Shown here piece after piece: positions 14,378 through 60,394 of a DNA stretch of 64,000 nucleotides; the stretch's first letter is position 1, and the number at the start of each line of letters is the position of its first letter. The notes below the pieces were generated by a model that did not search any database, was not told the origin of the DNA, and worked only from the letters and a program-made list of their open reading frames with translations. The stretch is from Candidatus Fimisoma avicola (lineage in GTDB: Bacteria; Bacillota; Clostridia; Peptostreptococcales; Anaerovoracaceae), in NCBI GenBank assembly GCA_018714945.1, contig DVMO01000006.1, forward strand, positions 945-64,944, given 5' to 3'. A program made the translations under genes and the position numbers.

Positions 14378-14393
14378 AGGAGTCTTCGGGATA

Positions 14394-15546: not shown

Positions 15547-15576
15547 GGTGCCGGCCATGACCGGCACCTGTTTTAT
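15547..15576 (+). terminator. Hairpin plus T-tract, probably the terminator of the transferase gene
   Basis: GGTGCCGG-CCATGA-CCGGCACC followed by TGTTTTAT. Confidence 0.5.
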
Positions 15577-15595
15577 GGGAAAGGAGGTGTAAAGA

Positions 15596-15841: not shown

Positions 15842-15897
15842 GATGTGCCGGATAAATCTCCCGGACACATGTACAAAGATAATGAGGAGGTACTGAG

Positions 15898-43200: not shown

Positions 43201-43593
43201 TTATTTTCTCTTGCAGTCTTTTGGAGTCACACAGGTTCCTGTTGCTCTTGCAACTACGATAGGCTCTTCAAGGAAGTCAGCTGCGGAAGGGCTGATGTCA
43301 GGTCTTGCAGCAACAACTTTTCTTGCTTCAAACTTCATCTTTCTTGAAGTGTTTCCTACGCTGGTGATCTCGCCGTAAGCTTCGATATAGTCGCCTGCAT
43401 ATGTAGGAGCAAGGAATTCTACATTATCATAAGCGCAGAACAGGCCTTCATCTCCGTCCATCTTGATAAGAAGTTCAGTGGCAACATCGCCGAACAGGTG
43501 TACCATATGAGCTCCGTCAACCAGATTTCCGCCGTAATGAGCGTCCTTTGCGGACATTCTGAGTCTTAAAGTTGAAGTGATTTTTTCTGCCAT
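43201..43593 (-). CDS. kal: 3-aminobutyryl-CoA ammonia-lyase (hot-dog fold)
   Basis: 130 aa. Size and sequence pattern ([21 protein letters not shown] ... GDYIEA.GEI..VGNTSRK) fit Kal of the lysine fermentation pathway. Its position in the kam/kdd locus supports the call. Confidence 0.8.
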
Positions 43594-43662: not shown

Positions 43663-43678
43663 TGCAAAATGCGTGCCA
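43663..43678 (-). promoter_or_regulatory. Sigma-54 (-24/-12) promoter of kal
   Basis: Minus strand reads TTGGCACGCATTTTGCAAT: TGGCAC-N5-TTGCA with exactly 10 nt between GG and GC, about 70 nt upstream of the kal ATG. Confidence 0.85.
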
Positions 43679-43748
43679 ATGGTTTAAGATTGAAATTACC
43701 ATACAAGTGAACCGAAATGGGTTCGCAACAGCAAGGAGTGAACACAAA

Positions 43749-45800
43749 ATGTCTATGCCATATGGTATCAATCGTGTGCTGGAACCAAAGCATGTGCTGC
43801 CAACATCAGCATGGAAGCTGGACAATAACCGCAGCATTTATTCCGATGAACTAAAGGTCTCAATACAAAGGATACACCTTGAGGGCACCGGATTCAAGCA
43901 GATTTGTACAGAATCCAACGACGATGAGAAAAAAATCAAGCAGGCCATAATAGATATCGTGATCCGCCGCGGCAAACTCCATAATCCTGTCACAGATACA
44001 GGCGGTCTTGTGATGGGAACGGTTGAAGAGATCGGCCAGGATTACGATAACAGATCGGGACTTAAAATAGGAGACGCAGTTATCTGCAATGCTTCGGCCG
44101 CATCAATCCCCATGTATATAGAGAATATAACATCTGTCAACAGGGTGTTTAACCAGGTAGAGGCAAACGGATATGCCATAGTGCACAGCCTCATACCTTT
44201 AGTCAAAGTGCCTGAGGACATACCCCTTGACCTGCTGATGTTCGTGTTTGACCAGTCAGGTACCTTGTACAGGCTCAACGAACTTGTGGGAAACAAGGAA
44301 AGGTTCCTGGTTGTCGGAAACAGCATGCTGACCAATCTGATATACGGTTATGTCATAAGGCAGAAGGCCGGAGAAGCCGGACAGATAACATGCCTGCTGG
44401 ACAAAAAAAGCAATACCAGGTTTACAGGGTGCGGTATAGACCGTCTGATAAGCCAGGTGTTTGACGAAGTGAGCTTTCTTGACATACTGAGACCGATGGA
44501 ATGCATGCGGCAGCTTGACGCCGAATCATATTACGATCTTTCCATAAACTGTGCAGAAATACCGGGAGCAGAGACTATCAACATCCTTGCCACCAAACCG
44601 GGAGGCACCGTCATGTTCGCCAATCTCATCAACAACCTGAACATAGCCCTCTACATTACGGAATCCATTTCAAAAAATCTTGAAGTCAGGGGCGCAGAGG
44701 GATATCTTGAGAAATATGATCAGTTTGATATGGGTATCGTAAGAGACATGGCTCCTTATATGGAAGATCTGACCATAGCCCAGACCAAGCCCCGTGAACC
44801 GGAGACAGAGCCTCCTTATAACAGGGCTCTGATGGAAAAGACCCTGGCTGAGGATTTTGTCTGCCGCAGCAAGGCCATGTGGAAAGTGCTGGAAGATATG
44901 ACAAAGGTATCGCGGTATGACTGTAATGTCATCATCTTCGGAGATACGGGCGTGGGAAAGGAAAAGGCGGCCAATATCATCCAGAAAAACAGCGCGCGGA
45001 AGATGCAGCCTTTTGTCAAGATCAACTGCGGTGCAATTTCTCCCACGCTGATAGAATCGGAATTTTTCGGATACGAAAAAGGAGCCTTTACAGGGGCCAA
45101 TGCTTCAGGGAAAAAAGGGTACTTTGAAATAGCCAACAATGGCGTCATCTTTCTGGACGAAATAGGCGAACTGCCGCTGGAAATGCAGGCCAAACTTTTA
45201 AGGGTCATCCAGGACGGCGAGTTTTACCGGGTAGGCGGGACGACACCCATCAAGACCAATGTCAGGATCATTTCCGCCACTAACCGTGATCTGGAAAAGT
45301 ATGTGGAGGAAGGAAAATTCCGAAGAGATCTGTATTACAGGCTCAATGTGGTACCCATCCGCATTCCCAGCTTAGCCGAGAGGACAGACGATATACCGGC
45401 TCTGATAAGCCATTTCCTGACCAAATACGGAGAAAAGTTCGGACTGAAACGGGGGATAACCGACAGCGCCGTGGAATATCTCCAGCAGCAGCAGTGGCCG
45501 GGAAACATACGGGAACTGGAAAACACCATACAGAGGCTTATGATAGCTGCTGCCGGAGAGGATATAACATTGATGGATGTCATGCGGGAAAGCCATGCGG
45601 ATCTTTTCGGCGGTGCAGTTCAAGATGAAGGAGAAGTTTTCGACCGGGAAGAAATAGATCTGCAGGCAGCCGTAGACGAGTATGAGAAAGGGCTGATAAA
45701 GTATGCATGCGATAAATACGGGTCAACCCGGAAAGCCGCAAAGGCCATAGGGATAAGCCAGACGCAGCTGGTACGCAAAAAGAAAAAGTATCAGATATAG
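43749..45800 (+). CDS. Sigma-54-dependent transcriptional activator with an N-terminal Kdd-like (3,5-diaminohexanoate dehydrogenase-like) sensor domain
   Basis: Residues ~1-340 align along their length with the two Kdd proteins downstream. The central AAA+ domain has GDTGVGKE (Walker A), GAFTGA, VIFLDEIGELP (Walker B) and WPGNIRELEN. The C-terminal Fis-type HTH is STRKAAKAIGISQTQLVRK. Start at 43749 behind AAGGAG. Confidence 0.9.
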   Translation: MSMPYGINRVLEPKHVLPTSAWKLDNNRSIYSDELKVSIQRIHLEGTGFKQICTESNDDEKKIKQAIIDIVIRRGKLHNPVTDTGGLVMGTVEEIGQDYDNRSGLKIGDAVICNASAASIPMYIENITSVNRVFNQVEANGYAIVHSLIPLVKVPEDIPLDLLMFVFDQSGTLYRLNELVGNKERFLVVGNSMLTNLIYGYVIRQKAGEAGQITCLLDKKSNTRFTGCGIDRLISQVFDEVSFLDILRPMECMRQLDAESYYDLSINCAEIPGAETINILATKPGGTVMFANLINNLNIALYITESISKNLEVRGAEGYLEKYDQFDMGIVRDMAPYMEDLTIAQTKPREPETEPPYNRALMEKTLAEDFVCRSKAMWKVLEDMTKVSRYDCNVIIFGDTGVGKEKAANIIQKNSARKMQPFVKINCGAISPTLIESEFFGYEKGAFTGANASGKKGYFEIANNGVIFLDEIGELPLEMQAKLLRVIQDGEFYRVGGTTPIKTNVRIISATNRDLEKYVEEGKFRRDLYYRLNVVPIRIPSLAERTDDIPALISHFLTKYGEKFGLKRGITDSAVEYLQQQQWPGNIRELENTIQRLMIAAAGEDITLMDVMRESHADLFGGAVQDEGEVFDREEIDLQAAVDEYEKGLIKYACDKYGSTRKAAKAIGISQTQLVRKKKKYQI

Positions 45801-45867: not shown

Positions 45868-46031
45868 GCGCATGAAACAAAAACGGTTCAAAATTCTTTC
45901 CCAATCTACTGCGATAAAGGCCGCAAGCGGCCGGAGCAGCCGTGGGCCAAACCCTTGAAATACAATGGAACGGGGAAAAAGAACAGGAAGTTTTGCCTTA
46001 TATCCGACAGGATCCGACAGGAAAAAACGAT

Positions 46032-46047
46032 TGGCATAATTTTTGCT
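46032..46047 (+). promoter_or_regulatory. Sigma-54 (-24/-12) promoter of the kdd-kam-ato operon
   Basis: TTGGCATAATTTTTGCTT: GG-N10-GC spacing, about 45 nt upstream of the kdd ATG. Confidence 0.85.
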
Positions 46048-46091: not shown

Positions 46092-47129
46092 ATGGAATTT
46101 AAAAAAGGAGACATATACGGTACACACCGGGTAATCGAACCAAAAGGCGTACTGCCGCAGCCGGCAGATGTTATTGACAATAACATGGAAATCTATGATA
46201 ACGAAGTTCTGATCGATGTACACACATTGAACATAGATTCCGCTTCTTTTACGGAGATCGAGAAGAGAGCCGGAGGAGATCTGGCCGAGATCGAAAAGAT
46301 CATAATGCATATAGTAGAAACAACAGGCAAGCACAAAAATCCGTGGACTGGTTCCGGCGGAATGCTCATCGGTAAAGTTGCTGAAGTGGGACCTAATTAT
46401 GTAGGAGACCTCAAAAAAGGCGACAAGATCGCAACGCTTGTATCCCTTTCCCTGACTCCGCTGAAGATCGACAAGATCATCGAGATCAGACCTGACATCG
46501 ACCAGGTAGACATCAAGGGACAGGCGATCCTTTTCCAGAGCGGTATCTATGCCAAGCTTCCGAAGGACATCCCTCAGACCCTGGCTCTGTCCGTACTGGA
46601 TGTGGCAGGAGCTCCTGCCCAGACTGCAAAGATCTGCAAGCCTGGAGATACTGTAGTAGTAATGGGCGGCGGCGGAAAATCCGGAATCCTCTGCTGCTGG
46701 CAGGCAAAGAAACAGGTTGGCGTAAACGGACATGTTATCTGCGTGGACGGATTCAAGAAGTCCATCAACAGAGCCATGTCAGTAGGCGTAGCTGATGAAT
46801 ATCTCGTGGTAAACGCTACTGACGCAGTTGCCATGTACGAAGAGATCTACGAAGCAACAGAAGGACAGATGGCAGATGTTGTCATAAATGTTGTAAACAT
46901 CCCTAACACAGAAATGGCCTCCATCCTTGCCTGCAAGGACAACGGAATGGTATACTTCTTCTCCATGGCGACAAGCTTTACCAAAGCAGCCCTGGGTGCA
47001 GAAGGTGTCGGCAAAGATGTCACCATGCTCATCGGAAACGGATATACCAAGGGTCATGCCAATGTAGCTCTCCAGATCCTCAGAGAGGACGAAAGGATAA
47101 GGAACCTGTTCGCTCAGCTTTACGCATAG
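46092..47129 (+). CDS. kdd: L-erythro-3,5-diaminohexanoate dehydrogenase, copy 1
   Basis: 345 aa from MEFKKGDIYGTHRVIEPKGVLPQPA. GGGGKSG dinucleotide-binding motif. Context with kamADE and kal. Start at 46092 behind AAAGGAG; the ORF-track extension to 45942 runs through the promoter. Confidence 0.85.
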   Translation: MEFKKGDIYGTHRVIEPKGVLPQPADVIDNNMEIYDNEVLIDVHTLNIDSASFTEIEKRAGGDLAEIEKIIMHIVETTGKHKNPWTGSGGMLIGKVAEVGPNYVGDLKKGDKIATLVSLSLTPLKIDKIIEIRPDIDQVDIKGQAILFQSGIYAKLPKDIPQTLALSVLDVAGAPAQTAKICKPGDTVVVMGGGGKSGILCCWQAKKQVGVNGHVICVDGFKKSINRAMSVGVADEYLVVNATDAVAMYEEIYEATEGQMADVVINVVNIPNTEMASILACKDNGMVYFFSMATSFTKAALGAEGVGKDVTMLIGNGYTKGHANVALQILREDERIRNLFAQLYA

Positions 47130-47362: not shown

Positions 47363-48436
47363 ATGGCTTTTAAACACGGAGACCCATATGGTACACACAG
47401 GGTGATCTCACCTAAGGGAGTGCTGCCGCAGCCTGCTGATGTTATCGACAACACTATGGAGATCTATGACAACGAGGTTCTTATCGATGTTAAGACTCTG
47501 AACATCGACTCAGCTTCATTCACAGAGATCGTAAGAAGATCCTGCAACGGCAAGAAGCCTGCTGACATCGAAAACTCTCCTGAAGATCAGGAAAAAGTAA
47601 AACAGACAATGCTTGACATCGTTGCCAAGGCTGGAAAGCACAAAAACCCATGGACAGGTTCCGGCGGAATGCTCATCGGTACCGTTAAGGAGATCGGCCC
47701 TGCTTATGTAGGTGACCTGAAAGTAGGCGACAAGATCGCTACTCTGGTATCCCTTTCCCTGACTCCGCTGGTGATCGAAGAGATCATCGAAATGAGACCT
47801 GCTATCGACCAGGTAGACATCAAGGGACAGGCAATCCTGTTCCAGAGCGGCATCTACGCTGTTCTTCCTGACGATATGCCTGAAGGCCTTGCCCTTTCAG
47901 CTCTGGATGTAGCAGGAGCTCCTGCCCAGACAGCCAAGCTGGTACAGTGCGGAATGAAAGTCCTCATCATAGGCGGCGGCGGAAAATCAGGACTCCTCTG
48001 CTTATATGAAGCAAAGAAGAGAGCCGGAGTTACCGGAATGGTAGTTTGCGCAGCAGGATCACAGAAATCCGAAGACAGAGCAAGAAAGCTCGACCTGGCT
48101 GACGAATACTTCCACCTGGATGCTACCGATGCCGTAGCCATGTACAACAAGGCTATGGAACTTACCAACGGCGAACTGTTCGACCTGGTAATCAACTGTG
48201 TAAACATCGAAAACACAGAAATGGCTTCTATCCTTGCCTGCAAGGACAACGGAACCGTATACTTCTTCTCCATGGCTACAAGCTTCACAAAGGCAGCCCT
48301 GGGAGCAGAAGGCGTAGGCAAAGATGTGAACATGATAATCGGAAACGGCTATACAAAGGGCCACGCAGCTATCACTCTGCAGGATCTCAGAGAACATCAG
48401 GGTATCAGAGAACTGTTCCAGGAGATGTATGCTTAA
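47363..48436 (+). CDS. kdd: L-erythro-3,5-diaminohexanoate dehydrogenase paralogue, copy 2
   Basis: 357 aa, roughly 70% identical to copy 1 by eye, with a ~12-aa insertion (CNGKKPADIENSPEDQEK). Retains IIGGGGKSG. AGGAGG RBS. Confidence 0.85.
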   Translation: MAFKHGDPYGTHRVISPKGVLPQPADVIDNTMEIYDNEVLIDVKTLNIDSASFTEIVRRSCNGKKPADIENSPEDQEKVKQTMLDIVAKAGKHKNPWTGSGGMLIGTVKEIGPAYVGDLKVGDKIATLVSLSLTPLVIEEIIEMRPAIDQVDIKGQAILFQSGIYAVLPDDMPEGLALSALDVAGAPAQTAKLVQCGMKVLIIGGGGKSGLLCLYEAKKRAGVTGMVVCAAGSQKSEDRARKLDLADEYFHLDATDAVAMYNKAMELTNGELFDLVINCVNIENTEMASILACKDNGTVYFFSMATSFTKAALGAEGVGKDVNMIIGNGYTKGHAAITLQDLREHQGIRELFQEMYA

Positions 48437-48520: not shown

Positions 48521-49783
48521 ATGGCTATTAGAAATTGGAAAGACATTCCTCTGTTCAAGGATGTTACCGATGAACAGTGGAACGACTGGCACTGGCAGGT
48601 AGAGCACAGACTCACCACAGTTGAGGAGATCGCTCAGGTGGTTAATCTGAGTGATCAGGAAAAAGCTGATATTGAAAAAGTAATGGGAGGATTCAGAGTA
48701 GGTATCACTCCTTACTATGCTTCCCTGATGGATCCTGATGATCCGAGAGATCCGGTAAGAATGCAGGCTGTTCCTACTCTGGCAGAAATGCACAGATCTG
48801 CTGCTGATGACCTGGACCCACTGCACGAAGATGCTGACTCTCCTGCTCCGGGACTTACCCACAGATATCCGGACAGAGTGCTGTTCCTGATCACTGACCA
48901 GTGCTCAATGTACTGCAGACACTGCACCAGAAGAAGACTGGCCGGCGAAACTGACGGCTCAAGATCAAGAGAAGATATCGACGCATGTATCGATTACATC
49001 AGAAGGACTCCTCAGGTAAGAGACGTTCTTCTGTCAGGCGGAGACTGCCTGCTGGTTGAAGATGAAACTCTTGAATACATCATCAGCGAGCTGAGAAAGA
49101 TCGACCATGTTGAGATCGTAAGACTCGGATCAAGAACCCCTGTCGTTATGCCTATGAGGATAACTGACAAGCTGGTAAACATGCTGAAGAAGTATCATCC
49201 GATCTGGCTGAACACTCACTTCAACCATCCTAAGGAAATGACTCCGGACGCCATGGAAGCATGCAGAAAGCTGGCTGACGCAGGTATACCTCTCGGCAAC
49301 CAGTCAGTACTGCTCAGAGGAGTAAACGACTGCAAGCACATCATGAGAGATCTGGTACAGATCCTGGTCAAGAACAGAGTAAGACCTTACTACATCTACA
49401 TCTGCGACCTGTCAATGGGTATCGAACACTTCAGAACACCTGTATCAAAGGGTATCGAGATCATCGAAGGACTGAGAGGACATACTTCCGGATATGCAGT
49501 ACCTACTTTCGTAGTAGACGCTCCTGGCGGCGGCGGAAAGACTCCTGTAATGCCTCAGTATGTAATTTCCCAGACTCCGCACAAGGTTATCCTGAGAAAC
49601 TACGAAGGCGTTATCACTACTTACACCGAGCCATCACTGCCTGAACTGCCTTGCACCTGCGATTACTGCACCGGCAAGAAGACCTACAAGTATCAGGGCG
49701 TTTCTGCTCTGGGCGAAGGTCCTGAGATCAGATACATGGAGCCAAGCAATCTGGCAAGACACGAAAGAAACAAACACGAATAA
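48521..49783 (+). CDS. kamA: L-lysine 2,3-aminomutase (radical SAM, PLP)
   Basis: CSMYCRHCTRRR radical-SAM motif, LLSGGD and the conserved KamA N- and C-terminal regions; 420 aa. Confidence 0.95.
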   Translation: MAIRNWKDIPLFKDVTDEQWNDWHWQVEHRLTTVEEIAQVVNLSDQEKADIEKVMGGFRVGITPYYASLMDPDDPRDPVRMQAVPTLAEMHRSAADDLDPLHEDADSPAPGLTHRYPDRVLFLITDQCSMYCRHCTRRRLAGETDGSRSREDIDACIDYIRRTPQVRDVLLSGGDCLLVEDETLEYIISELRKIDHVEIVRLGSRTPVVMPMRITDKLVNMLKKYHPIWLNTHFNHPKEMTPDAMEACRKLADAGIPLGNQSVLLRGVNDCKHIMRDLVQILVKNRVRPYYIYICDLSMGIEHFRTPVSKGIEIIEGLRGHTSGYAVPTFVVDAPGGGGKTPVMPQYVISQTPHKVILRNYEGVITTYTEPSLPELPCTCDYCTGKKTYKYQGVSALGEGPEIRYMEPSNLARHERNKHE

Positions 49784-49858
49784 TTTCTTTCAAAAATTAA
49801 ATGATCACCCGGAGGGAGGCCGCAAGGCCTCCCCATTGGGGAGAAAGAGGATATAAAT

Positions 49859-50878
49859 ATGGGGCTTCTTAACGACCTGTCAACTAAATACAAGACAATT
49901 TCCATAGTCGGCATGGCCAAAAACGCCGGAAAGACCACGGCGCTCAACTACCTGATAGAGGAAGCGATAGACGAGGGGATGATCCTTGGCATCACATCTA
50001 CAGGCAGAGACGGAGAAACCCAGGACCTGGTGACAGGGACAGAAAAGCCGAGAGTATATGTGGACCGGGATATGCTTGTGGCTGTGCCTTCTCTTTTGTA
50101 TGATATGGCAGACGCCGGTCTTGAGGTCATAAGAAAGACAAAATATTCAACAGCAATAGGAGAACTTCTCATATGCCGTGTCAGAGAGGCCGGATATGTC
50201 CAGATCGCAGGGCCTGTCATCAACGCCGAACAAAAGCTCCTCTGCCGTGATATGCTGGATCTGGGATGCCAGCTCATCCTGATAGACGGGGCCATAGACA
50301 GGAAATCCATAGCCTCACCGGACACATCGGATGCGATAATCTTATCTACAGGAGCCGTACTTTCCAGGAAAATGAACAAGGTAGTGGAAGAAACGGCCCA
50401 TGTCGTGAATCTTTACAGATCACCTGAACTGGAAGACGGTGTCATCAGAGACGCCATAGAAAAAAACAACTTTGATAATAAGATCATGCTCGTAAGCGGC
50501 GACGGAAAAATAACGAAGCTGGACCTGGCCACGGGCCTTGGAGCTTCAAAGGATATTAACGGAGCCATAGACGAGGAGACAAGATATATATATATACCGG
50601 GGGCTTTCACCAACAGCGTCATATGCGACATAAGCCTGAAAAACCTCAAACAGGTGAAATTCGTGCTGAAAGACCCCACCAAGATATTCATAAGAGCCAT
50701 GGACTGGGGCATTTACAGAAAAAAAGGCTTCAGGCTCAGCGTACTGAAAAACATTGAGATCGCGGCCATAACTGTCAACCCGTGGGCCCCGGCAGGATAT
50801 ACATTTGACAACCGGGTACTGCTGGAAGAAATGCAGAAGGCCATTGCCGATATTCCCATAGTAGATGTGAGGATGTGA
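49859..50878 (+). CDS. P-loop NTPase of unknown function conserved in kam loci (candidate lysine 5,6-aminomutase reactivase subunit, KamB-like)
   Basis: Walker A-like IVGMAKNAGKTT. Lies between kamA and the MutS-like gene, and its stop overlaps the next start (ATGTGA). Confidence 0.5.
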   Translation: MGLLNDLSTKYKTISIVGMAKNAGKTTALNYLIEEAIDEGMILGITSTGRDGETQDLVTGTEKPRVYVDRDMLVAVPSLLYDMADAGLEVIRKTKYSTAIGELLICRVREAGYVQIAGPVINAEQKLLCRDMLDLGCQLILIDGAIDRKSIASPDTSDAIILSTGAVLSRKMNKVVEETAHVVNLYRSPELEDGVIRDAIEKNNFDNKIMLVSGDGKITKLDLATGLGASKDINGAIDEETRYIYIPGAFTNSVICDISLKNLKQVKFVLKDPTKIFIRAMDWGIYRKKGFRLSVLKNIEIAAITVNPWAPAGYTFDNRVLLEEMQKAIADIPIVDVRM

Positions 50879-52659
50879 CCATGAAACAAGGCAAGAACAG
50901 AAGGCTGGCAAACTCCAAGACCAGGCGGGAGACAGGTCTTGAGTATGTGATGTTCAACCTGGACCTTAATACGCCTTTTGGAAAAAAACAGCTTAAAGAA
51001 ATAAGACCGTATTATCCCGGAGAAGAAGATGAACTGAGAGAAGAACTGGATCGTGTCGGCAGGATGATACAGTTTGTGAAACAGAACCAGACTTTGACTG
51101 ATAAGATCCAGGAAGTATTTATGGAAGTGAAGGATCCTTCCCTCACTGTCCAGCGCAGCGGCAGCGCCACCCTCTCTACAGTCGAACTGTATGAGGTCAA
51201 GTCCCTGCTCCTCCAGATGAGACAGCTGCGCAAGCTGACAATGGAGCACGAGATAGGAGACTATAAAGGCGTACACAGCCCGGCCGAGTGCAGAGCAGCA
51301 GCCGGACCGGAAGATGAGGGCTGCTGCACGCCTGTGACGGAAGTGTCCCGCCTTGACATGGAAAAGGATCAGGATGCTCCTGTGGTAGATACAGTGCCGG
51401 AAGAATATTTCCTGGAGGATACCGAGGATCTTCTGGACGAGCTGGATCCAAGAAAAGACAGGATGAACACTTTCTACATCTATGATGAGTTCAGCCCTGT
51501 GCTGGGTGGATACAGGTCCAAAAAGCGTGAATACGAGCTGATGATCCGCAGAGAACAGAAGCAGGCCAGGGATGAGCTCAGAAGACAGCACGGAGTCCAG
51601 CTGACGCCGAAATTTGATATCGTGGTCGCCAGATCCCATCCTGATTTTGAAAAGATACAGGATCTTCAGGAACTGGAAGCCGTGGATCAGGATTACATGA
51701 GCGTAACATTCCAGCTGAAGCCTACTGACATTATCCGCGGATATATGGCGGAAATGGAGAACCTCAATGCTGACATAGAGACCGAAGAGGAAAAAGTCAG
51801 AGAAGATCTTTCAAGGAAGATTTCCCAAAAGGCGGATGTCATCCTGGCAAACTGCCAAAAGATGGGAGCTTTGGATCTGGCCCTGGGAAGAGCCATATAT
51901 TCCATAAAACACGATCTTATAAAACCGGAGATCACAGAAGAACATGTCATCCAATTTGAAGACGGCCGCAATCTCCAGGTTGAGGATATAATAAAGTCAA
52001 AAGGAAAGGAATATTGTCCTGTGTCCCTGTCCCTGAAGGACGGGGTAACGCTCATAACAGGAGCCAATATGGGAGGAAAGACCATTTCCCTCAAACTGGC
52101 TGGACAGATACCTATCCTTGCCCAGTATGGTTTCTTTGTACCGGCAAAGAAAGCAAAGGTGGGACTTTCCAATTACATGCAGATACTCATAGGCGATTCC
52201 CAGTCCGTAGAAAGAGGCCTTTCCAGCTTCGGCTCGGAAATGGAAGAACTCAAGGAGATCCTCGATCACGGACAGGACAGGAGCCTGATACTCATAGACG
52301 AGATAGCATCCGGCACCAACCCTACAGAAGGAACTGCCCTTACCAGGAGCCTTGTGGACTATCTCATAGAAAGACCGTATATTTCCCTGATCACGACACA
52401 TTTTGAAACTGTGACCGAGCGGGAGGGCGTTGTGAACATGCAGGTGAGAGGCCTTGCCGACTGTGATTTCACAAAGCTCAACAGCGAGATACAGAGGGCA
52501 AATCGTCGCGACAGGATAAATATAATATCAAAGTACATGGATTATCGCCTGCAGCGCGTTGAAAACGGTGCGCAGGTGCCTAAGGATGCTCTGAATATAG
52601 CCGCCATGCTCGGTATCGACAAGGCGATCATAGACGGAGCGAAAAAATATATCAGATAA
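50875..52659 (+). CDS. MutS-domain-V-like ATPase (candidate lysine 5,6-aminomutase reactivase ATPase, KamC-like)
   Basis: ITGANMGGKTISLK (Walker A), LILIDEIASGTNPTEG (Walker B) and TTHF motifs as in the MutS/MutS2 ATPase domain. No mismatch-binding N-domain is recognised. Confidence 0.6.
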   Translation: MTMKQGKNRRLANSKTRRETGLEYVMFNLDLNTPFGKKQLKEIRPYYPGEEDELREELDRVGRMIQFVKQNQTLTDKIQEVFMEVKDPSLTVQRSGSATLSTVELYEVKSLLLQMRQLRKLTMEHEIGDYKGVHSPAECRAAAGPEDEGCCTPVTEVSRLDMEKDQDAPVVDTVPEEYFLEDTEDLLDELDPRKDRMNTFYIYDEFSPVLGGYRSKKREYELMIRREQKQARDELRRQHGVQLTPKFDIVVARSHPDFEKIQDLQELEAVDQDYMSVTFQLKPTDIIRGYMAEMENLNADIETEEEKVREDLSRKISQKADVILANCQKMGALDLALGRAIYSIKHDLIKPEITEEHVIQFEDGRNLQVEDIIKSKGKEYCPVSLSLKDGVTLITGANMGGKTISLKLAGQIPILAQYGFFVPAKKAKVGLSNYMQILIGDSQSVERGLSSFGSEMEELKEILDHGQDRSLILIDEIASGTNPTEGTALTRSLVDYLIERPYISLITTHFETVTEREGVVNMQVRGLADCDFTKLNSEIQRANRRDRINIISKYMDYRLQRVENGAQVPKDALNIAAMLGIDKAIIDGAKKYIR

Positions 52660-52670
52660 GGAGAAATGGG

Positions 52671-54224
52671 ATGAAAAGCAAACTTAATCTTGACCAGAAA
52701 GTTGTTGACAGCGCCCGCCAGCATGCGGCAAATATCGCCCACGACATGCAGGAATTCATCGATCGTCATACAACGGTATCCACAGAGAGGACCATTGTAA
52801 GACTTTTGGGTGTTGACGGCGTGGATGATGTTGATACGCCGCTGCCAAATGTGGTCGTAGACCAGATCAAGGACGCAGGAGCTCTGCCTACAGGAGCAGC
52901 ATACCTGATGGGTAATGCAATGGTCCAGACAGGAAAGACTCCGCAGGAGATTGCAGAGGACATGGCTGCAGGCAAACTTGACATTACCAAGCTGCCTACA
53001 TGCACTCAGGAAGAAGCTGCCGAGGCATTAAAGCCGGTCATCAAAAAGACTTTTGAGAAGATCGACGCTCAGATAGCAAAGCGTAAAGAATATCTTTCCA
53101 CCATAGGCGAAGGTCCGGAACCTTATATCTATGTAATCGTAGCTACCGGAAACATCTATGAGGATGTGGTGCAGGCTCAGGCCGCTGCAAGACAGGGCGC
53201 TGATGTTATCGCTGTTATCAGGACAACAGCCCAGTCCCTGCTTGACTATGTTCCTTACGGACCTACTACAGAAGGTTTCGGCGGTACATATGCTACTCAG
53301 GAAAACTTCAGGATCATGAGAAAAGCTCTCGACGAAGTAGGAGAAGAGGTTGGCAGATATATCAGACTCTGTAACTATTCCTCAGGAATGTGCATGCCTG
53401 AGATCGCTGCCATGGGAGCGCTCGAAAGACTTGATATGATGCTCAACGATGCTATCTACGGCATCCTGTTCAGAGACATCAACATGCAGAGGACTCTGGT
53501 AGACCAGTTCATGTCAAGGGTTATCATCGGATACTGCGGTATAATCTTCAACTCAGGTGAAGACAACTATCTGACCACAGACGATGCCATCGAAGCTGCC
53601 CACACCGTAACAGCTTCCCAGTTCATCAACGAACAGTTTGCTGTACTGGCCAACATCCCTGAAGAACAGATGGGTCTTGGACACGCATTTGAAATGGACC
53701 CTTCAACCGAGGACGGATTCCTGCTTGAACTGGCTCAGGCCCAGATGGCAAGAGAGATCTTCCCTAAGGCAAGATTAAAATACATGCCGCCTACAAAGTT
53801 CATGACCGGAAATATTTTCAGAGGACACCTGCAGGACGCTCTGTTCAATCTGGTAACTGTCTGGACACATCAGTCCATACTGCTGACCGGAATGCTGACA
53901 GAAGCCATCCATACACCGTTCATGCAGGACAGATATCTCTCAATAGAAAACGCCAAATATATCTTCAATAACTGCAGACATATAGGCGATGAGATCGAAT
54001 TCAAAGAGGGCGGCATAATCCAGAGCCGTGCTCACGAAGTTCTCAAGAAGGCTGATGACCTTCTGGCTGAAGTGGAAAAGGAAGGCCTCTTCTCAACCAT
54101 CGAGAAAGGTATCTTCGGCGGAGTTAAGCGTCCGTTCGACGGCGGCCACGGCCTTGAAGGCGTTTGCACCAAGGGCGAAAACTACTTCAATCCGTTTATT
54201 CCACTGTTCATGGATCATAAATAA
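52671..54224 (+). CDS. kamD: Lysine 5,6-aminomutase alpha subunit
   Basis: 517 aa TIM-barrel subunit immediately upstream of the B12-binding beta subunit. The sequence pattern is typical of KamD. Confidence 0.88.
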   Translation: MKSKLNLDQKVVDSARQHAANIAHDMQEFIDRHTTVSTERTIVRLLGVDGVDDVDTPLPNVVVDQIKDAGALPTGAAYLMGNAMVQTGKTPQEIAEDMAAGKLDITKLPTCTQEEAAEALKPVIKKTFEKIDAQIAKRKEYLSTIGEGPEPYIYVIVATGNIYEDVVQAQAAARQGADVIAVIRTTAQSLLDYVPYGPTTEGFGGTYATQENFRIMRKALDEVGEEVGRYIRLCNYSSGMCMPEIAAMGALERLDMMLNDAIYGILFRDINMQRTLVDQFMSRVIIGYCGIIFNSGEDNYLTTDDAIEAAHTVTASQFINEQFAVLANIPEEQMGLGHAFEMDPSTEDGFLLELAQAQMAREIFPKARLKYMPPTKFMTGNIFRGHLQDALFNLVTVWTHQSILLTGMLTEAIHTPFMQDRYLSIENAKYIFNNCRHIGDEIEFKEGGIIQSRAHEVLKKADDLLAEVEKEGLFSTIEKGIFGGVKRPFDGGHGLEGVCTKGENYFNPFIPLFMDHK

Positions 54225-54239
54225 GGAGGTGCGCTTACG

Positions 54240-55034
54240 ATGGCAGAAAATAAAACAGCTACTACCAAGGTAGATTTAACTTGTGTAAAGCCTTACGGCG
54301 ACGCGCTGAACGACGGAAAAGTTCAGATATCATTCACTCTTCCGGTACCTTACGGTGAAGAAGCGGAAGAATGTGCAAAACAGTATGTAAAGAAGCTCGG
54401 CCTGGAAGAGCCAAATGTGGCATATTACTGCGAACTCACAACAGGATATACATTCTTTAATGTTTACGGATCAGCTCAGCCTACTATCGACTATACGGCC
54501 ATTAAAGTCCCTAAGGTAGAGGGAACTGTCATGGACCGTGTTGAGTGCGGCGAATGGATAGCTGAACACATCGGCAGAGACATTGTCGTAGTAGGAGCTT
54601 CCATCGAATCAGACGCTCATACAGTAGGTATCGACGCCATAATCCAGATGAAGGGCTTCCATGGTCACTTCGGTCTGGAAAGATTCAAGAATGTAGTTGC
54701 ATACAACATGGTCTCCCAGGTTCCTTGTGAGGAACTGATAGCCAAGGCTAAAGAAGTAAACGCTGACGCTATCCTGGTTTCCCAGACAGTAACTCAGAAG
54801 GACATCCACATCAAACAGCTCACCAAGATGGAAGAACTGGTTGAAGCCGAGGGCCTCAGAGATAAGATAATCCTCACCTGCGGCGGTCCTAGGATTTCCC
54901 ATGAGCTGGCTCAGGAGCTTGGATATGACGCAGGATTCGGACCTGGAAAATATGCCGAGCATGTAATGAGCTACATCATGCAGGAAGTTGAAAAGAGAGG
55001 CTGGCAGAACAAGCCAAAGATCGAAGACCGCTAA
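54240..55034 (+). CDS. kamE: Lysine 5,6-aminomutase beta subunit (B12- and PLP-binding)
   Basis: SDAHTVGID (DxHxxG base-off cobalamin motif) and a Rossmann-like B12 domain; 264 aa. Confidence 0.9.
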   Translation: MAENKTATTKVDLTCVKPYGDALNDGKVQISFTLPVPYGEEAEECAKQYVKKLGLEEPNVAYYCELTTGYTFFNVYGSAQPTIDYTAIKVPKVEGTVMDRVECGEWIAEHIGRDIVVVGASIESDAHTVGIDAIIQMKGFHGHFGLERFKNVVAYNMVSQVPCEELIAKAKEVNADAILVSQTVTQKDIHIKQLTKMEELVEAEGLRDKIILTCGGPRISHELAQELGYDAGFGPGKYAEHVMSYIMQEVEKRGWQNKPKIEDR

Positions 55035-55125
55035 AATATGATCCCGGCCCGGTTGACATCAGCCAACGAATGGGATAAAGTTATATTAAGATCAACATAC
55101 AATATTTGAGAAAGGTGATACGAAC

Positions 55126-55851
55126 ATGATCAACAAAATTATGACTGCAGATGAAGCAGTTGCAGGCGTAAAAGACGGTATGACCATCATGGTCGGCGGA
55201 TTCCTGGCAACAGGTTCACCGGAAGTTCTTATGGATGCGCTTGTAAGAAAAGGCGTAAAGCACCTTACGGTTATAGCTAATGACGGAGGACTGGATGCAG
55301 GTCAGCCTGCCGGAGAATTTGCCGGCAAGACAGCAAGAGGAGTAGGAAAGCTTCTTGAACATCACATGGTAGACCACATCATCGCTTCCCATCTTGGTGT
55401 AAACCCTAAGCTGAACGAACAGTTTGCTGAAGGTACTCTTAAATATACCCTCGTTCCGCAGGGAACTCTGGCTGAAAAGATCAGAGCCGCTGCTTACGGC
55501 CTGGGCGGAGTCCTGACTCCTACCGGAGTAGGTACTCCTATGGAGACAGAGCTGGATGAACTGGGAAGAAAGAAACAGGTAGTTGAGATCGAAGGCAAGA
55601 AGTATCTGCTGGAGCTCCCTCTCCATGCCGACTATGCTTTCATCAGACCTTCTGTAGCTGATAAATTCGGTAATTTCTACTGCAAGAAAGCTACTAAGAA
55701 TTTCAACTATGTAATGGCAGGAGCCGCTGACAAGACTATCATAGCTCCTGAAAAAATCGTAGAAATTGGCGAGATCGACCCTGATATGTTCGCAGTAGCG
55801 GGCGTGCTGGTAGATGCAATCGCGGAAGGAGAGAAACCATGGCAGATTTAA
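55126..55851 (+). CDS. atoD: 3-oxoacid/acetoacetate CoA-transferase subunit A
   Basis: V.DGMTIMVGGF...G.P..L and PQGTLAE.IRA motifs. Confidence 0.9.
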   Translation: MINKIMTADEAVAGVKDGMTIMVGGFLATGSPEVLMDALVRKGVKHLTVIANDGGLDAGQPAGEFAGKTARGVGKLLEHHMVDHIIASHLGVNPKLNEQFAEGTLKYTLVPQGTLAEKIRAAAYGLGGVLTPTGVGTPMETELDELGRKKQVVEIEGKKYLLELPLHADYAFIRPSVADKFGNFYCKKATKNFNYVMAGAADKTIIAPEKIVEIGEIDPDMFAVAGVLVDAIAEGEKPWQI

Positions 55852-56495
55852 AACAGAGAATCGCAAAGAGATGTGCGAAAGAATTTAAAGACGGCGAATT
55901 CGCCAATCTGGGGATCGGTCTCCCTACTATGGTAGCTGACTACATTCCTGATGACATCATGGTTACATTCCACTCCGAAAACGGATTTGCCGGTATCGAT
56001 GCAATGGCTGACGAAAGCAATCTGGATGTGGATATAATCAACTCAGGCGGATCATATGTAACCGCAGTTGACAGGGTTAAATACTTTGATACAGCCGAAT
56101 CTTTCGGTCTGGTAAGAGGCGGACATGTAAGAGCCACCGTCCTGGGCGCAATGGAAGTTGCCGAAAACGGAGACCTGGCAAACTGGATCGTACCAGGCAA
56201 GAAAGTTGCCGGTATGGGCGGAGCCATGGACCTGTGCACAGGATGTCCTGAAGTTATCATCGTAATGCTCCACACCAACAAAGGTAAGCCTAAGATCCTG
56301 AAAAAATGCTCTCTGCCGCTTACTGCAGAAAAGTGCGTTTCCAAGATCATAACCGAGATGGGCGTTATGGAAGTAAGAGAAGACGGTATCTGGGTAGTTG
56401 AACTCCACCCTGATTACACCAAAGAAGACATTCAGGCTGCAACTGAATGTGAACTCCACTTCGATCCTGATATGAAGGCAATGGAAGAGGAGTAA
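55839..56495 (+). CDS. atoA: 3-oxoacid/acetoacetate CoA-transferase subunit B
   Basis: NLGIGLPT, SENG (catalytic Glu) and GMGGAMDL motifs; overlaps subunit A. Confidence 0.9.
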   Translation: MADLKQRIAKRCAKEFKDGEFANLGIGLPTMVADYIPDDIMVTFHSENGFAGIDAMADESNLDVDIINSGGSYVTAVDRVKYFDTAESFGLVRGGHVRATVLGAMEVAENGDLANWIVPGKKVAGMGGAMDLCTGCPEVIIVMLHTNKGKPKILKKCSLPLTAEKCVSKIITEMGVMEVREDGIWVVELHPDYTKEDIQAATECELHFDPDMKAMEEE

Positions 56496-56627
56496 AAAAA
56501 TTCCAGCATGACATATAATAGCAAAGACCGCTGTGTACCGCAAAGGCGCACAGCGGTCTTTGCGTATACGGAAAAAGTTCCGGAGGTTGTGTTCTCAAAG
56601 GAAAACATAAAATTTGCGTTAAGATTA

Positions 56628-56657
56628 TTGACATTTATGTAAAGAAAGTGTTAAAAT
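56628..56657 (+). promoter_or_regulatory. Putative sigma-70-type promoter of the transporter gene
   Basis: TTGACA (56628-56633), 18-nt spacer, TAAAAT (56652-56657). A second TATAAT lies at 56664-56669. Confidence 0.45.
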
Positions 56658-56716
56658 ATCGGATATAATGTTAAGGAAGTGCAAAGAAAATGCACAAAAG
56701 GAGGAATTACAATCAA

Positions 56717-60248: not shown

Positions 60249-60315
60249 AAGATCGCCTCCGAACTGTCAGTTTCTGATATTGTATCAGATTGATTCTGTG
60301 ACAGTCAAGGGATAT

Positions 60316-60365
60316 GAGGAAAGGACAGGACAGATGGATGGAGGAAAGGACAGGACAGATGGAAG
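60316..60365. repeat. Tandem direct repeat (2 x 25 nt) just upstream of a sigma-54 promoter
   Basis: GAGGAAAGGACAGGACAGATGGA at 60316-60338 and again, identical, at 60341-60363. Confidence 0.85.
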
Positions 60366-60378
60366 CGACAGATCATGT

Positions 60379-60394
60379 TGGCACGGGGTTTGCA
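60379..60394 (+). promoter_or_regulatory. Sigma-54 (-24/-12) promoter of the SDR-nhaC-deacetylase-amidohydrolase operon
   Basis: TTGGCACGGGGTTTGCACAT: TGGCAC-N5-TTGCA with GG-N10-GC spacing, about 48 nt upstream of the SDR ATG. Confidence 0.85.

What the first reader, a model, noticed from the sequence alone, without database searches (positions are those of the whole stretch)
43749..45800. Enhancer-binding protein whose sensor is a catalytically degenerate copy of the pathway enzyme Kdd
The first ~340 residues of this sigma-54 activator align end to end with the two 3,5-diaminohexanoate dehydrogenases encoded just downstream. Examples: YGINRVLEPKHVLP versus YGTHRVIEPKGVLP; GKLHNPVTDTGGLVMGTVEEIG versus GKHKNPWTGSGGMLIGKVAEVG; INCAEIPGAETINILATKPGGTVMF versus INVVNIPNTEMASILACKDNGMVYF. 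The dinucleotide-binding glycine motif VVMGGGGKSGILC of the enzymes reads LVVGNSMLTNLIY in the regulator (nt ~44307-44336), so NAD(P) binding is probably lost while the substrate-binding fold is kept. This domain replaces the usual PAS/GAF/V4R/receiver module in front of a complete AAA+ domain (GAFTGA present) and a Fis-type HTH. The simplest reading is that an enzyme paralogue was recruited as the ligand sensor. It would probably detect 3,5-diaminohexanoate or a neighbouring intermediate and switch on the pathway that makes and consumes that ligand. I do not know of any experimental description of this sensor class.
Basis: partly seen in the sequence, partly recalled or inferred. Interest (0 to 1): 0.8.

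Follow-up and report, generated by a model that had tools for sequence, protein, structure and literature searches.

The report
Lysine-fermentation activator with dead-enzyme sensor
A sigma-54 transcription activator that sits between the lysine-to-butyrate fermentation genes of a gut anaerobe uses, in place of a usual sensor module, a full-length but non-catalytic copy of one of the pathway's own enzymes (3,5-diaminohexanoate dehydrogenase); this sensor type is conserved in many genomes, and I found no paper that describes it.

Summary
Window 43749-45800 (+) encodes a 683-aa sigma-54 enhancer-binding protein. Residues 4-334 are homologous end to end to the two Kdd enzymes encoded just downstream (28-29% identity, E 2e-40 and 2e-44). 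An AlphaFold model matches the solved Kdd structures (E about 1e-28, TM 0.69-0.83). All three glycine positions of the dinucleotide-binding motif are replaced in 81 of 81 orthologues and kept in 94 of 94 neighbouring Kdd enzymes. No other glycine-rich motif exists in the domain.

The domain is conserved rather than decaying: 106 columns are at least 90% conserved, and 36 of them are fixed differently from Kdd. The gene lies between two conserved sigma-54 promoters, one toward kal and one toward the kdd-kam operon. Both have a conserved palindrome (GAACC-N6-GGTTC) upstream.

Other fusion proteins still carry an intact glycine motif. In a rough tree they fall between the enzymes and the degenerate clade.

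What the domain senses is not shown. A pathway diamino acid is the most likely ligand, and gene contexts make lysine or beta-lysine as plausible as 3,5-diaminohexanoate.

The architecture can be read from the Pfam domain hits (KDD_N plus Sigma54_activat). I found no published description. Verdict: a real, new sensor variant of a known regulator kind.

The parts
43749..45800 (+). Regulator gene: 683-aa sigma-54 enhancer-binding protein (Kdd-like sensor, linker, AAA+, HTH)
   Evidence: ORF; Pfam domains; 79 complete orthologues of 682-704 aa in related loci.
43758..44750 (+). Kdd-like N-terminal domain (residues 4-334), a two-lobed medium-chain-dehydrogenase fold
   Evidence: BLASTP E 2e-40 and 2e-44 to Kdd1 and Kdd2. 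NF052381 E 2e-41. PDB 7DL3 E 4e-29. AF2 pLDDT 89.7; Foldseek 7DL0/3/7 E about 1e-28, TM 0.69-0.83.
44316..44336 (+). Degenerate dinucleotide-binding motif G190-N-S-M-L-T-N196, at the strand 185-190 / helix 193-210 turn
   Evidence: Aligns to G199-A-N-G-K-S-G205 of 7DL3 and to GGGGKSG of Kdd1/2. The glycine triad is N / hydrophobic or other / N in 81 of 81 regulators and G/G/G in 94 of 94 Kdd. The secondary structure of the model places it at the beta1-alphaA turn.
44661..44663 (+). Glu305, counterpart of Glu310 of the enzyme
   Evidence: Aligned; at least 90% conserved in both families. Glu310 hydrogen-bonds the NADPH amide, and E310G changes substrate scope (PMC9902596).
44751..44861 (+). Proline- and glutamate-rich linker (residues 335-371)
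   Evidence: pLDDT below 50 from residue 345; sequence; no Pfam hit.
44862..45359 (+). AAA+ sigma-54 interaction domain (Walker A 44940-44963, GAFTGA 45081-45098, Walker B 45144-45161)
   Evidence: PF00158 E 1.4e-67; motif coordinates.
45651..45797 (+). [quoted passage not shown]
   Evidence: PF18024 E 3e-14, residues 635-683.
43663..43678 (-). Sigma-54 promoter toward kal (TGGCACGCATTTTGCA)
   Evidence: Exact match to the consensus. A promoter with the same orientation and position is present in 58 of 77 related loci.
43709..43724 (.). Palindrome GAACCGAAATGGGTTC: candidate activator binding site for the kal promoter, lying in the regulator's own leader
   Evidence: Present in 51 related loci at a fixed 37-38 bp from the -24 element, about 40 bp before the regulator ATG.
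43201..43593 (-). kal (3-aminobutyryl-CoA ammonia-lyase-like, hotdog fold), the divergent target gene
   Evidence: 4HBT hit. A divergent kal is conserved in 62 of 71 loci. The name follows the lysine pathway as described in PMC3149608.
45843..45858 (.). Palindrome GAACCGAAAAAGGTTC: candidate upstream activator site 1 of the kdd promoter; also a terminator-like hairpin of the regulator gene
   Evidence: Sites of this type occur in 58 related loci, at a median of 126 bp upstream of the -24 element.
45874..45889 (.). Second site GAAACAAAAACGGTTC, 31 bp from the first
   Evidence: Paired sites 31-32 bp apart occur in 24 related loci, plus one at 33 bp.
46032..46047 (+). Sigma-54 promoter of the kdd-kam operon (TGGCATAATTTTTGCT)
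   Evidence: A promoter in the same place is present in 63 of 77 related loci.
46092..47129 (+). kdd1, 3,5-diaminohexanoate dehydrogenase
   Evidence: NF052381 261 bits against a cut-off of 200.
47363..48436 (+). kdd2, 3,5-diaminohexanoate dehydrogenase
   Evidence: NF052381 247 bits; E 4.5e-103 to 7DL3.
48521..58129 (+). Rest of the putative target operon: kamA, a 339-aa ORF, a MutS_V protein, kamD, kamE, two CoA-transferase subunits and a DcuC-type carrier
   Evidence: Pfam hits. The same gene order is found in most related loci.

Best explanation
This is the dedicated sigma-54 activator of the lysine-to-butyrate fermentation genes of an Anaerovoracaceae bacterium. Its signal-input module is a complete but non-catalytic descendant of the pathway enzyme Kdd.

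Shown by computation:
- The protein binds DNA through an HTH_50 domain.
- Candidate binding sites are GAACC-N6-GGTTC palindromes. One lies next to the kal promoter, and a pair about three helical turns apart lies upstream of the kdd promoter.
- The AAA+ domain has all the motifs needed to remodel sigma-54 RNA polymerase.
- Both flanking promoters are of the -24/-12 type.

Inferred:
- The Kdd-like domain no longer binds NAD(P) in the canonical way and cannot oxidise substrate.
- It keeps the inter-lobe cleft, where it binds a C6 diamino acid of the pathway: 3,5-diaminohexanoate, beta-lysine or lysine.
- Without ligand, the domain, probably as a dimer like medium-chain dehydrogenases, holds the AAA+ domains in an inactive state through the flexible linker.
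- Ligand-induced closure of the two lobes releases them, so they assemble into the active ring and switch on kal and the operon kdd1-kdd2-kamA-(two accessory genes)-kamDE-CoA transferase-carrier.
- The site in the regulator's own leader may also give autoregulation.
For: Homology and fold.

Loss of catalytic competence: the glycine triad is replaced in 81 of 81 regulators and kept in 94 of 94 Kdd. The Kdd-invariant Thr10 and His11 are free to vary. There is no alternative glycine motif.

The domain is functional, not decaying: 106 columns are at least 90% conserved among the regulators. Of these, 43 are shared with Kdd, including Arg12, Lys85, Asn88, Pro89, Glu310, Gly323 and Tyr324 (7DL3 numbering). 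Another 36 are fixed to a different residue. The best-conserved blocks (RGKLHNPVTDTGG and NCADIPGAET...FANLINNYNIALYITES) correspond to the most conserved blocks of Kdd.

Regulon: kdd lies directly downstream in 60 of 70 loci, kamA within 6 kb in 54 of 61, and kal is divergent in 62 of 71. Sigma-54 promoters face kal in 58 of 77 loci and kdd in 63 of 77, and none faces the regulator gene. The palindrome is about 30-fold enriched in both intergenic regions, at 4.9 and 5.3 per kb against 0.17 per kb over all loci. Its position and 31-32 bp pairing are conserved.

Evolution: fusions with an intact glycine motif lie beside kdd or kdd-kce-kal-permease operons. In a neighbour-joining tree they branch between the enzymes and the degenerate clade.
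Against: No ligand binding, ATPase control or promoter activation was measured or can be computed here.

No substrate-bound Kdd structure is listed: the four entries found are the wild-type enzyme without a named ligand and NADPH complexes. So I could not say which conserved residues touch the substrate.

Glu305 corresponds to a residue that contacts the nicotinamide amide in the enzyme. A conserved Asp218 sits at the end of Rossmann strand beta2, where NAD-dependent enzymes bind the adenosine ribose (established knowledge of Rossmann folds). Some residual nucleotide binding is therefore not excluded.

The site near the kal promoter is unusually close to it (centre 37-38 bp from the -24 element). 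The first site upstream of kdd is also a good intrinsic-terminator hairpin.

Close relatives beside kamA but without kdd or kamDE in reach argue against 3,5-diaminohexanoate as the only candidate ligand.
Confidence: 0.6

Rival explanations
1. The remodelled cofactor pocket still binds a nucleotide (NAD(P)H or another adenine nucleotide). The domain would then report redox or energy state rather than a pathway amine, or would need both signals.
For: Glu305, the counterpart of the NADPH-amide-binding Glu310, is at least 90% conserved. So is Asp218 at the end of beta2, and Asn191 and Asn196 replace two of the glycines in a conserved way. The Rossmann lobe is predicted with high confidence. Fusion relatives with an intact motif exist.
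Against: All three positions of the GxGxxG triad are replaced in 81 of 81 members, the second by Met, Leu or other bulky residues. By established knowledge of Rossmann folds this should block approach of the pyrophosphate to the helix N-terminus. No other glycine-rich motif is present.
Confidence: 0.15
2. Partner switch. The pseudo-enzyme domain pairs with the real Kdd enzyme, with which it shares the dimer-forming fold. The regulator would then read the occupancy or abundance of Kdd rather than binding a metabolite itself.
For: Regulator and kdd are adjacent in 60 of 70 loci. The fold is shared end to end. Enhancer-binding proteins controlled by enzyme partners are known, for example DhaR with DhaK and DhaL (my own knowledge).
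Against: Close relatives with the same conserved residues lie beside kamA without kdd in reach. A more distant member (L083) heads an operon with no kdd at all. The most conserved blocks of the domain are those that are also most conserved in Kdd, and I read these as cleft-lining, which was not verified on coordinates. No interface analysis was possible.
Confidence: 0.12
3. The Kdd-like domain is only an oligomerisation or stability scaffold with no signal input. The operon would then be controlled by the amount of regulator or by something else.
For: No ligand is shown. The palindrome in the regulator's own leader could make expression level the controlled variable.
Against: 106 highly conserved columns, concentrated in the blocks that are also the most conserved in the enzyme, are more than a scaffold would need. 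Input-less activators of this family, such as PspF, simply lack an N-domain (PMC6615313).
Confidence: 0.08
4. The protein is a bifunctional active dehydrogenase-regulator whose cofactor site is merely shifted in the alignment.
For: End-to-end homology and retention of Glu305, Gly318 and Tyr319.
Against: Three independent alignments (BLASTP, phmmer against 7DL3, MAFFT of 175 sequences) place GNSMLTN on the glycine motif without gaps. The model puts it at the beta1-alphaA turn. No glycine-rich motif occurs elsewhere. The Kdd-invariant His11 is lost. Two intact kdd genes follow.
Confidence: 0.02

Closest known systems
L-erythro-3,5-diaminohexanoate dehydrogenase (Kdd; PDB 7DL0, 7DL1, 7DL3, 7DL7 from Candidatus Cloacimonas acidaminovorans)
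   Same: Same two-lobed fold over the whole length (Foldseek E about 1e-28, TM 0.69-0.83). 43 columns are conserved in both families, including Arg12, Lys85, Glu310, Gly323 and Tyr324.
   Different: 24-29% identity. The glycine triad and Thr10/His11 are lost, and 36 positions are fixed to other residues. It scores below the NCBIfam equivalog cut-off (141.9 against 200 bits). It is fused to AAA+ and HTH domains, and it is not expected to catalyse.
KamR of Bacillus thuringiensis HD73, the sigma-54 activator of kamA
   Same: An enhancer-binding protein encoded next to kamA that activates a -24/-12 promoter of a lysine/beta-lysine catabolic locus (PMC4428206).
   Different: KamR carries a PAS sensor, not a Kdd-like domain. 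Its locus is the Bacillus kam locus, and kdd and kamDE are not among the genes named in PMC4428206.
PrdR and other clostridial amino-acid-fermentation activators (OrdR, LeuR)
   Same: The AAA+ and HTH part is most similar to PrdR (NF041552, E 4.9e-100 over residues 368-682). The logic is the same: one activator per Stickland or fermentation operon (PMC6615313).
   Different: It scores far below the PrdR equivalog cut-off (335 against 795 bits), and the N-domain is unrelated. The survey of clostridial activators lists PAS, GAF, PrpR_N, ACT, CBS, V4R, receiver and hydrogenase-like input domains but no Kdd-like one, and it does not mention lysine.
Ligand-sensing activators XylR, DmpR and MopR (V4R-type sensor) and NorR (GAF)
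   Same: One-component design: an N-terminal small-molecule sensor, a linker, AAA+ and an HTH. Negative control by the N-domain is the usual mechanism (my own knowledge; MopR papers surfaced).
   Different: The sensor fold is unrelated, and those sensors are not derived from an enzyme of the regulated pathway.
Regulators with enzyme-derived effector domains: MocR/GabR (aminotransferase fold), BzdR (shikimate-kinase-like), ROK repressors (sugar-kinase fold)
   Same: Same evolutionary idea: an enzyme fold that already binds the metabolite is reused as the sensor of a transcription factor (my own knowledge, not tested here).
   Different: Those are sigma-70-type repressors or activators with different output domains. 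None has a medium-chain-dehydrogenase fold, and none is an AAA+ enhancer-binding protein.

Membership tests
Bacterial enhancer-binding proteins (sigma-54 activators) | AAA+ sigma-54 interaction domain with Walker A, Walker B and the GAFTGA loop | tested here: met
   PF00158 E 1.4e-67; GDTGVGKE 398-405, VIFLDE 466-471, GAFTGA 445-450.
Bacterial enhancer-binding proteins (sigma-54 activators) | C-terminal DNA-binding helix-turn-helix | tested here: met
   HTH_50 E 3e-14, residues 635-683.
Bacterial enhancer-binding proteins (sigma-54 activators) | -24/-12 promoters at neighbouring target genes, with upstream activator sites | tested here: met
   Promoters at 43663-43678 (-) and 46032-46047 (+) are conserved in 58 and 63 of 77 loci. 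A conserved palindrome lies upstream of both. Binding itself was not tested.
Bacterial enhancer-binding proteins (sigma-54 activators) | rpoN (sigma-54) present in the genome | not testable with these tools
   rpoN was not looked for in the 64-kb window and the rest of the genome is not available. A second activator gene and a third -24/-12 promoter in the window make it likely.
Kdd enzyme (NCBIfam NF052381 equivalog) | Score at or above the curated cut-off of 200 bits | tested here: not met
   141.9 bits against 261 and 247 for Kdd1 and Kdd2.
Kdd enzyme (NCBIfam NF052381 equivalog) | Glycine-rich dinucleotide-binding motif G/A-x-G-x-x-G | tested here: not met
   N191, M193 and N196 occupy the three positions. 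The triad is lost in 81 of 81 orthologues and kept in 94 of 94 Kdd. No alternative motif exists.
Kdd enzyme (NCBIfam NF052381 equivalog) | Kdd-type medium-chain-dehydrogenase fold over the full length | tested here: met
   AF2 pLDDT 89.7. The top seven Foldseek hits are all Kdd structures; the next hits are at E 1e-11, TM about 0.5.
Kdd enzyme (NCBIfam NF052381 equivalog) | NAD(P)-dependent oxidative deamination of 3,5-diaminohexanoate | not testable with these tools
   This needs an enzyme assay. Absence is predicted from the motif loss.
Pfam KDD_N (PF26370) domain family | Match to the family model | tested here: inconclusive
   The local Pfam copy lacks PF26370, so neither the regulator nor the two Kdd enzymes hit it. 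Homologues at 50-85% identity carry precomputed PF26370 hits together with PF00158.
KamR (Bacillus thuringiensis) type | PAS sensor domain in front of the AAA+ domain | tested here: not met
   No PAS hit at E up to 0.1 in residues 1-370. KamR is described as carrying a PAS domain (PMC4428206).
PrdR (NCBIfam NF041552 equivalog) | Full-length match above the 795-bit cut-off | tested here: not met
   335.5 bits, and only residues 368-682 align.

The most novel reading that the evidence does not exclude
The Kdd-like module would be a new class of enhancer-binding-protein sensor. A pathway dehydrogenase was fused to an AAA+ activator, first as a cofactor-competent and perhaps still catalytic domain. 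The fusions of Cohnella kolymensis (P0074, L081) and of a Bacillota MAG (P0135, L088) represent that stage: they keep the GxGGxxG and Thr-His-Arg motifs and sit beside kdd-kce-kal-permease operons. Later the cofactor pocket was rebuilt, so that the domain became a pure receptor for a C6 diamino acid. In some lineages its specificity shifted from 3,5-diaminohexanoate to beta-lysine or lysine. That would give a stepwise natural series from enzyme to pseudoenzyme receptor inside one regulator family.
Probability: 0.4. Interest if true: 0.75.

Novelty: new variant of a known kind. Interest (0 to 1): 0.62.

Why it matters
Lysine fermentation is one of the routes by which gut and oral anaerobes make butyrate (PMC4697335, PMC3994512). 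In the library searched, I found no description of how it is switched on outside Bacillus KamR. This regulator gives a concrete, testable control point that is conserved in Anaerovoracaceae and relatives. It comes with predicted promoters and binding sites.

For the sigma-54 field it adds an input module of about 340 residues that derives from the regulated pathway's own enzyme. A solved structure of the parent enzyme is available, and natural intermediates still carry the cofactor motif. That makes it a good system for studying how an enzyme becomes a receptor.

The domain could also serve as a starting point for biosensors of beta- or diamino acids.

Tried and rejected
- **Shifted cofactor site.** Rejected: no glycine-rich motif exists anywhere in residues 1-345, and three alignments and the model agree on the position.
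- **Chimeric contig or recent local duplication.** Rejected: all 80 best genome loci have the same fusion, and the 79 ORFs that could be read through to a stop are 682-704 aa. The N-domain is no closer to its neighbouring Kdd (28-29%) than expected for an old split.
- **Stand-alone degenerate Kdd-like proteins.** P0108 runs off the end of its contig, so it is a truncated gene call. P0113 (322 aa) was not checked.
- **Longer TTG-started ORF from 43632.** Rejected: homologues start at the MSM..YG position, a ribosome-binding site precedes 43749, and the extra stretch overlaps the kal promoter.
- **Residue-level pocket comparison.** Not possible. The Kdd structure paper (PMID 33624917) is not held, model coordinates are not returned, and the PDB entries hold NADPH but no substrate.
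- **Bacillus KamR paper (PMC4135644).** Not held.
- **Sigma-70 promoter for the regulator.** The consensus scan gave nothing convincing in the leader. My by-eye candidate TTGCAA-17-TAAGAT scores only 8 of 12.
- **kce.** Searched in the window and in the loci. It is absent from the window and present only in L055 and L057.
- **Count of about 598 genome hits.** This cannot be read as 598 fusions. The search pattern RGK[LM]HNP also fits many stand-alone Kdd-like proteins. Only the best 80 were checked.
- **Full-length structure prediction.** Not run, because the tool returns no inter-domain confidence.
Full report
**Observation**

The ORF at 43749-45800 (+) encodes a 683-aa protein. An AGGAG lies 10 nt before the ATG. 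Pfam places a sigma-54 interaction domain at residues 372-537 (E 1.4e-67), an AAA lid at 544-615 and an HTH_50 at 635-683. It finds nothing in the first 370 residues. Walker A, GAFTGA and Walker B are intact.

The first 374 residues align by BLASTP with the two downstream genes. Against 46092-47129 the identity is 28% over 332 aa (E 2e-40). Against 47363-48436 it is 29% over 347 aa (E 2e-44). These two genes are 69% identical to each other. Both pass the NCBIfam equivalog model for L-erythro-3,5-diaminohexanoate dehydrogenase, at 261 and 247 bits against a cut-off of 200. The regulator hits the same model at E 2e-41 but with only 141.9 bits.

**Fold**

The only solved structures related by sequence are the four entries of 3,5-diaminohexanoate dehydrogenase from Candidatus Cloacimonas: 7DL0, 7DL1, 7DL3 and 7DL7. 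They match at E 4e-29 over residues 4-334. Kdd2 matches them at E 4.5e-103.

I built an AlphaFold2 model of residues 1-354 on 37 aligned sequences. Its mean pLDDT is 89.7 and its pTM 0.88; only the tail from residue 345 is disordered. Foldseek against the PDB returns seven Kdd chains first (E about 1e-28, TM 0.69-0.83). Ordinary medium-chain alcohol dehydrogenases follow at E about 1e-11 and TM about 0.5. The domain is therefore a complete two-lobed Kdd-type fold and not a fragment.

**Cofactor and catalytic motifs**

I extracted 80 regulators and 91 Kdd enzymes from 80 related genome loci. To these I added the window's three proteins and 7DL3, and aligned all 175 sequences. This makes the 81 regulators and 94 Kdd compared below.

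In 7DL3 numbering the dinucleotide triad is at positions 200, 202 and 205, within G199-A-N-G-K-S-G205.
- All 94 Kdd sequences have [GA]-x-G-x-x-G at these positions.
- All 81 regulators have Asn, then a bulky or other non-glycine residue, then Asn. The consensus is GNNLLxN, and the window protein has GNSMLTN at residues 190-196.
- The model puts these residues exactly at the turn between strand 185-190 and helix 193-210.
- No other glycine-rich motif exists in the domain.

Thr10 and His11 of the nearly universal YGTHRV motif of the enzymes are free to vary in the regulators.

The domain is clearly under constraint. 106 columns are at least 90% conserved among the regulators. Of these, 43 are shared with Kdd: Arg12, Lys85, Asn88, Pro89, Glu310, Gly323, Tyr324 and others. 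Another 36 are fixed to a different residue: G200 to N, G205 to N, G227 to D, H86 to L, K87 to H, G92 to D and others.

A review states that Glu310 hydrogen-bonds the amide of NADPH and that E310G alters substrate scope (PMC9902596). Its counterpart Glu305 is retained in the regulators. The former cofactor pocket has thus been rebuilt, not abandoned.

**Surroundings and regulon**

Upstream and divergent lies a hotdog-fold gene, kal (43201-43593). Downstream lie kdd1, kdd2, kamA, a 339-aa ORF, a MutS_V protein, kamD, kamE, two CoA-transferase subunits and a DcuC-type carrier. These are the genes of the lysine fermentation pathway as described in PMC3149608, except for kce. kce is not in the window.

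A perfect -24/-12 promoter faces kal (43663-43678, minus strand). A one-mismatch promoter faces kdd1 (46032-46047).

In the 80 best loci from species-representative genomes, all matches are the same fusion; 79 ORFs read through to a stop are 682-704 aa. These genomes are mostly Anaerovoracaceae / Family XIII, including Emergencia timonensis, Ihubacter, Aminipila, Anaerovorax and Sinanaerobacter.
- kdd follows directly in 60 of 70 loci that extend far enough.
- kamA lies within 6 kb in 54 of 61.
- kal is divergent in 62 of 71.
- A sigma-54 promoter faces kal in 58 of 77 loci and faces kdd in 63 of 77. None faces the regulator gene.

A palindrome, GAACC-N6-GGTTC with at most one mismatch, occurs at 4.9 and 5.3 per kb in the two intergenic regions. 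Over all loci it occurs at 0.17 per kb.
- Upstream of kdd its centre lies a median of 126 bp before the -24 element. Twenty-four loci have two copies 31-32 bp apart, and one more has them 33 bp apart.
- Next to the kal promoter a single copy sits at a fixed 37-38 bp from the -24 element.
- The window has all three copies, at 43709, 45843 and 45874.
- The copy at 45843 is also a good terminator hairpin for the regulator gene.

These are the expected binding sites of the activator. Binding itself is inferred.

**The wider family**

An exhaustive search of 1.84 billion representative proteins with the N-domain gives 748 clusters at E up to 0.001 and 72 at E up to 1e-30. The best 150 include at least 21 full-length fusions of 679-717 aa at 29-60% identity.

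Precomputed domain hits call the N-domain KDD_N (PF26370), together with Sigma54_activat. The local Pfam copy lacks that model. The window protein belongs to a 137-member cluster named only 'sigma 54-interacting transcriptional regulator'. Kdd2 is identical to a protein of Candidatus Fimisoma avicola.

The fusions fall into two groups.
- Seven (P0074 of Cohnella kolymensis, P0135, P0124, P0130, P0150, P0145 and P0147) keep a glycine-rich motif in whole or in part, from GAGGKLG in P0074 to GADNRGG in P0145. P0074 and P0135 also keep Thr-His-Arg.
- The rest, including the window protein, have lost the motif.

In a neighbour-joining tree the degenerate fusions form one clade, and the intact-motif fusions branch between it and the stand-alone enzymes. 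The tree is crude and only indicative.

Intact-motif fusions sit beside kdd alone (L086) or beside kdd, kce, kal and an amino-acid permease (L081, L088). A sigma-54 promoter was checked and found after the regulator gene in L081 and L086.

**What does it sense?**

This is inference. The parent enzyme binds 3,5-diaminohexanoate and NADP(H). The kdd-kce-kal-permease operons next to the intact-motif fusions contain no aminomutase within reach. That fits induction by imported 3,5-diaminohexanoate.

In the degenerate clade the picture differs. The regulators of L039 and L053 lie next to kamA, a CoA transferase, a thiolase and a class-III aminotransferase, with no kdd or kamDE within 10 kb. They differ from the family consensus at only 2-3 of the 106 conserved columns. 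A more distant member heads an operon of CoA transferases, a thiolase, two aminotransferases and enzymes of the 4-hydroxybutyryl-CoA type.

If those close relatives bind the same ligand as the window protein, then lysine or beta-lysine fits better than 3,5-diaminohexanoate. However, those genomes may carry kdd and kamDE elsewhere. I therefore name the ligand only as a C6 diamino acid of the pathway.

**Mechanism**

My best estimate, at about 0.6 confidence for the whole chain, is as follows.
1. The Kdd-like domain holds the AAA+ domains inactive. It probably acts as a dimer and works through the disordered, proline-rich linker (residues 335-371).
2. Ligand binding in the cleft closes the lobes and releases the AAA+ domains.
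3. The ring assembles on the palindromes and opens both promoters.

Negative control is the norm for ligand-sensing members of this family such as XylR, DmpR and NorR (my own knowledge), but it is not shown here.

The rivals are listed with their tests: residual nucleotide or redox sensing (0.15), pairing with the real Kdd enzyme (0.12), a scaffold without signal input (0.08) and an active bifunctional enzyme (0.02).

**Comparison with what is known**

Sigma-54 control of lysine catabolism is known in Bacillus thuringiensis, where KamR activates kamA. KamR has a PAS sensor (PMC4428206).

The survey of clostridial sigma-54 regulons lists many input domains, including a hydrogenase-like one. It lists no Kdd-like domain and never mentions lysine.

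Searches for the dehydrogenase, for lysine fermentation together with sigma-54, and for dehydrogenase-like sensors of enhancer-binding proteins found no description of this architecture. The searched library is incomplete, since most subscription-journal papers are missing.

The reuse of an enzyme fold as the effector domain of a transcription factor has precedents (MocR/GabR, BzdR, ROK repressors; my own knowledge). The principle is therefore not new. New here are the fold, the output domain and the fact that the donor enzyme belongs to the regulated pathway.

**Verdict**

It is a new sensor variant within a known regulator kind. It is widespread, it is already recorded as a domain combination in the precomputed Pfam hits, and it is functionally uncharacterised. 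Interest 0.62.

Noticed in passing
window 58350-60394: A second sigma-54 activator gene lies on the minus strand at 58350-60248. It faces a perfect -24/-12 promoter (60379-60394, +) that leads into a short-chain dehydrogenase, a transporter and a further ORF. Its reading frame breaks at the conserved GWPGNVRELEN motif and continues in other frames, which suggests a pseudogene or a sequencing error. Its first 335 or so residues have no Pfam hit.
   Followed up: partly
window 46092-47129 and 47363-48436; Kdd genes of L001-L080: Two Kdd paralogues (69% identical) are kept side by side in many related genomes. The Kdd1 type always has Asp at the end of Rossmann strand beta2 (VICVDGF, 27 of 27). 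Most of the Kdd2 type have none (V[VI]C[AI][AG]GSxKS; two of the listed 66 read VIVIDGF). This suggests different NAD versus NADP preference.
   Followed up: partly
L039, L053, L065 (about 12000-18000); L083 10318-18109: Relatives of the regulator head or adjoin clusters of kamA, a CoA transferase, a thiolase and one or two class-III aminotransferases, without kdd or kamDE in reach. In L083 the cluster also holds HpaB/AbfD-like and acetyl-CoA-hydrolase-family genes. This looks like a route from beta-lysine through a 3-keto-6-amino intermediate to 4-aminobutyrate and butyrate that bypasses the B12 aminomutase.
   Followed up: partly
window 1-64000; L055 7717-8538, L057 6771-7583: [quoted passage not shown] In this lineage it must lie elsewhere in the genome.
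   Followed up: yes
window 49859-52659: A 339-aa ORF with a P-loop-like start and no Pfam hit, followed by a 594-aa protein with a MutS domain V ATPase, lies between kamA and kamD here and in nearly all related loci. They may be accessory or reactivating factors of the aminomutases.
   Followed up: no
L065 7038-11279: An Anaerovorax odorimutans genome carries two copies of the Kdd-like activator in tandem (43% and 53% identical to the window's N-domain) in front of kamA. The more divergent copy departs from the family consensus at 28 of 106 conserved columns.
   Followed up: no
L081 10001-12048: The Cohnella kolymensis fusion keeps an intact GAGGKLG motif and the Thr-His-Arg motif of the enzymes. 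NCBI names it as the dehydrogenase itself, and in the deposited assembly it is split into 535-aa and 161-aa pieces within the AAA+ part.
   Followed up: partly
L047 2834-5744, L061 5459-8382, L058: Some genomes have the regulator but no kal or kam genes within reach. In L047 it lies next to a pseudouridine synthase gene and DNA-repair helicase-nuclease genes, and L061 has the same ORF layout (not scanned). L058 was not examined beyond the tblastn map. The operon may have been lost or moved.
   Followed up: partly
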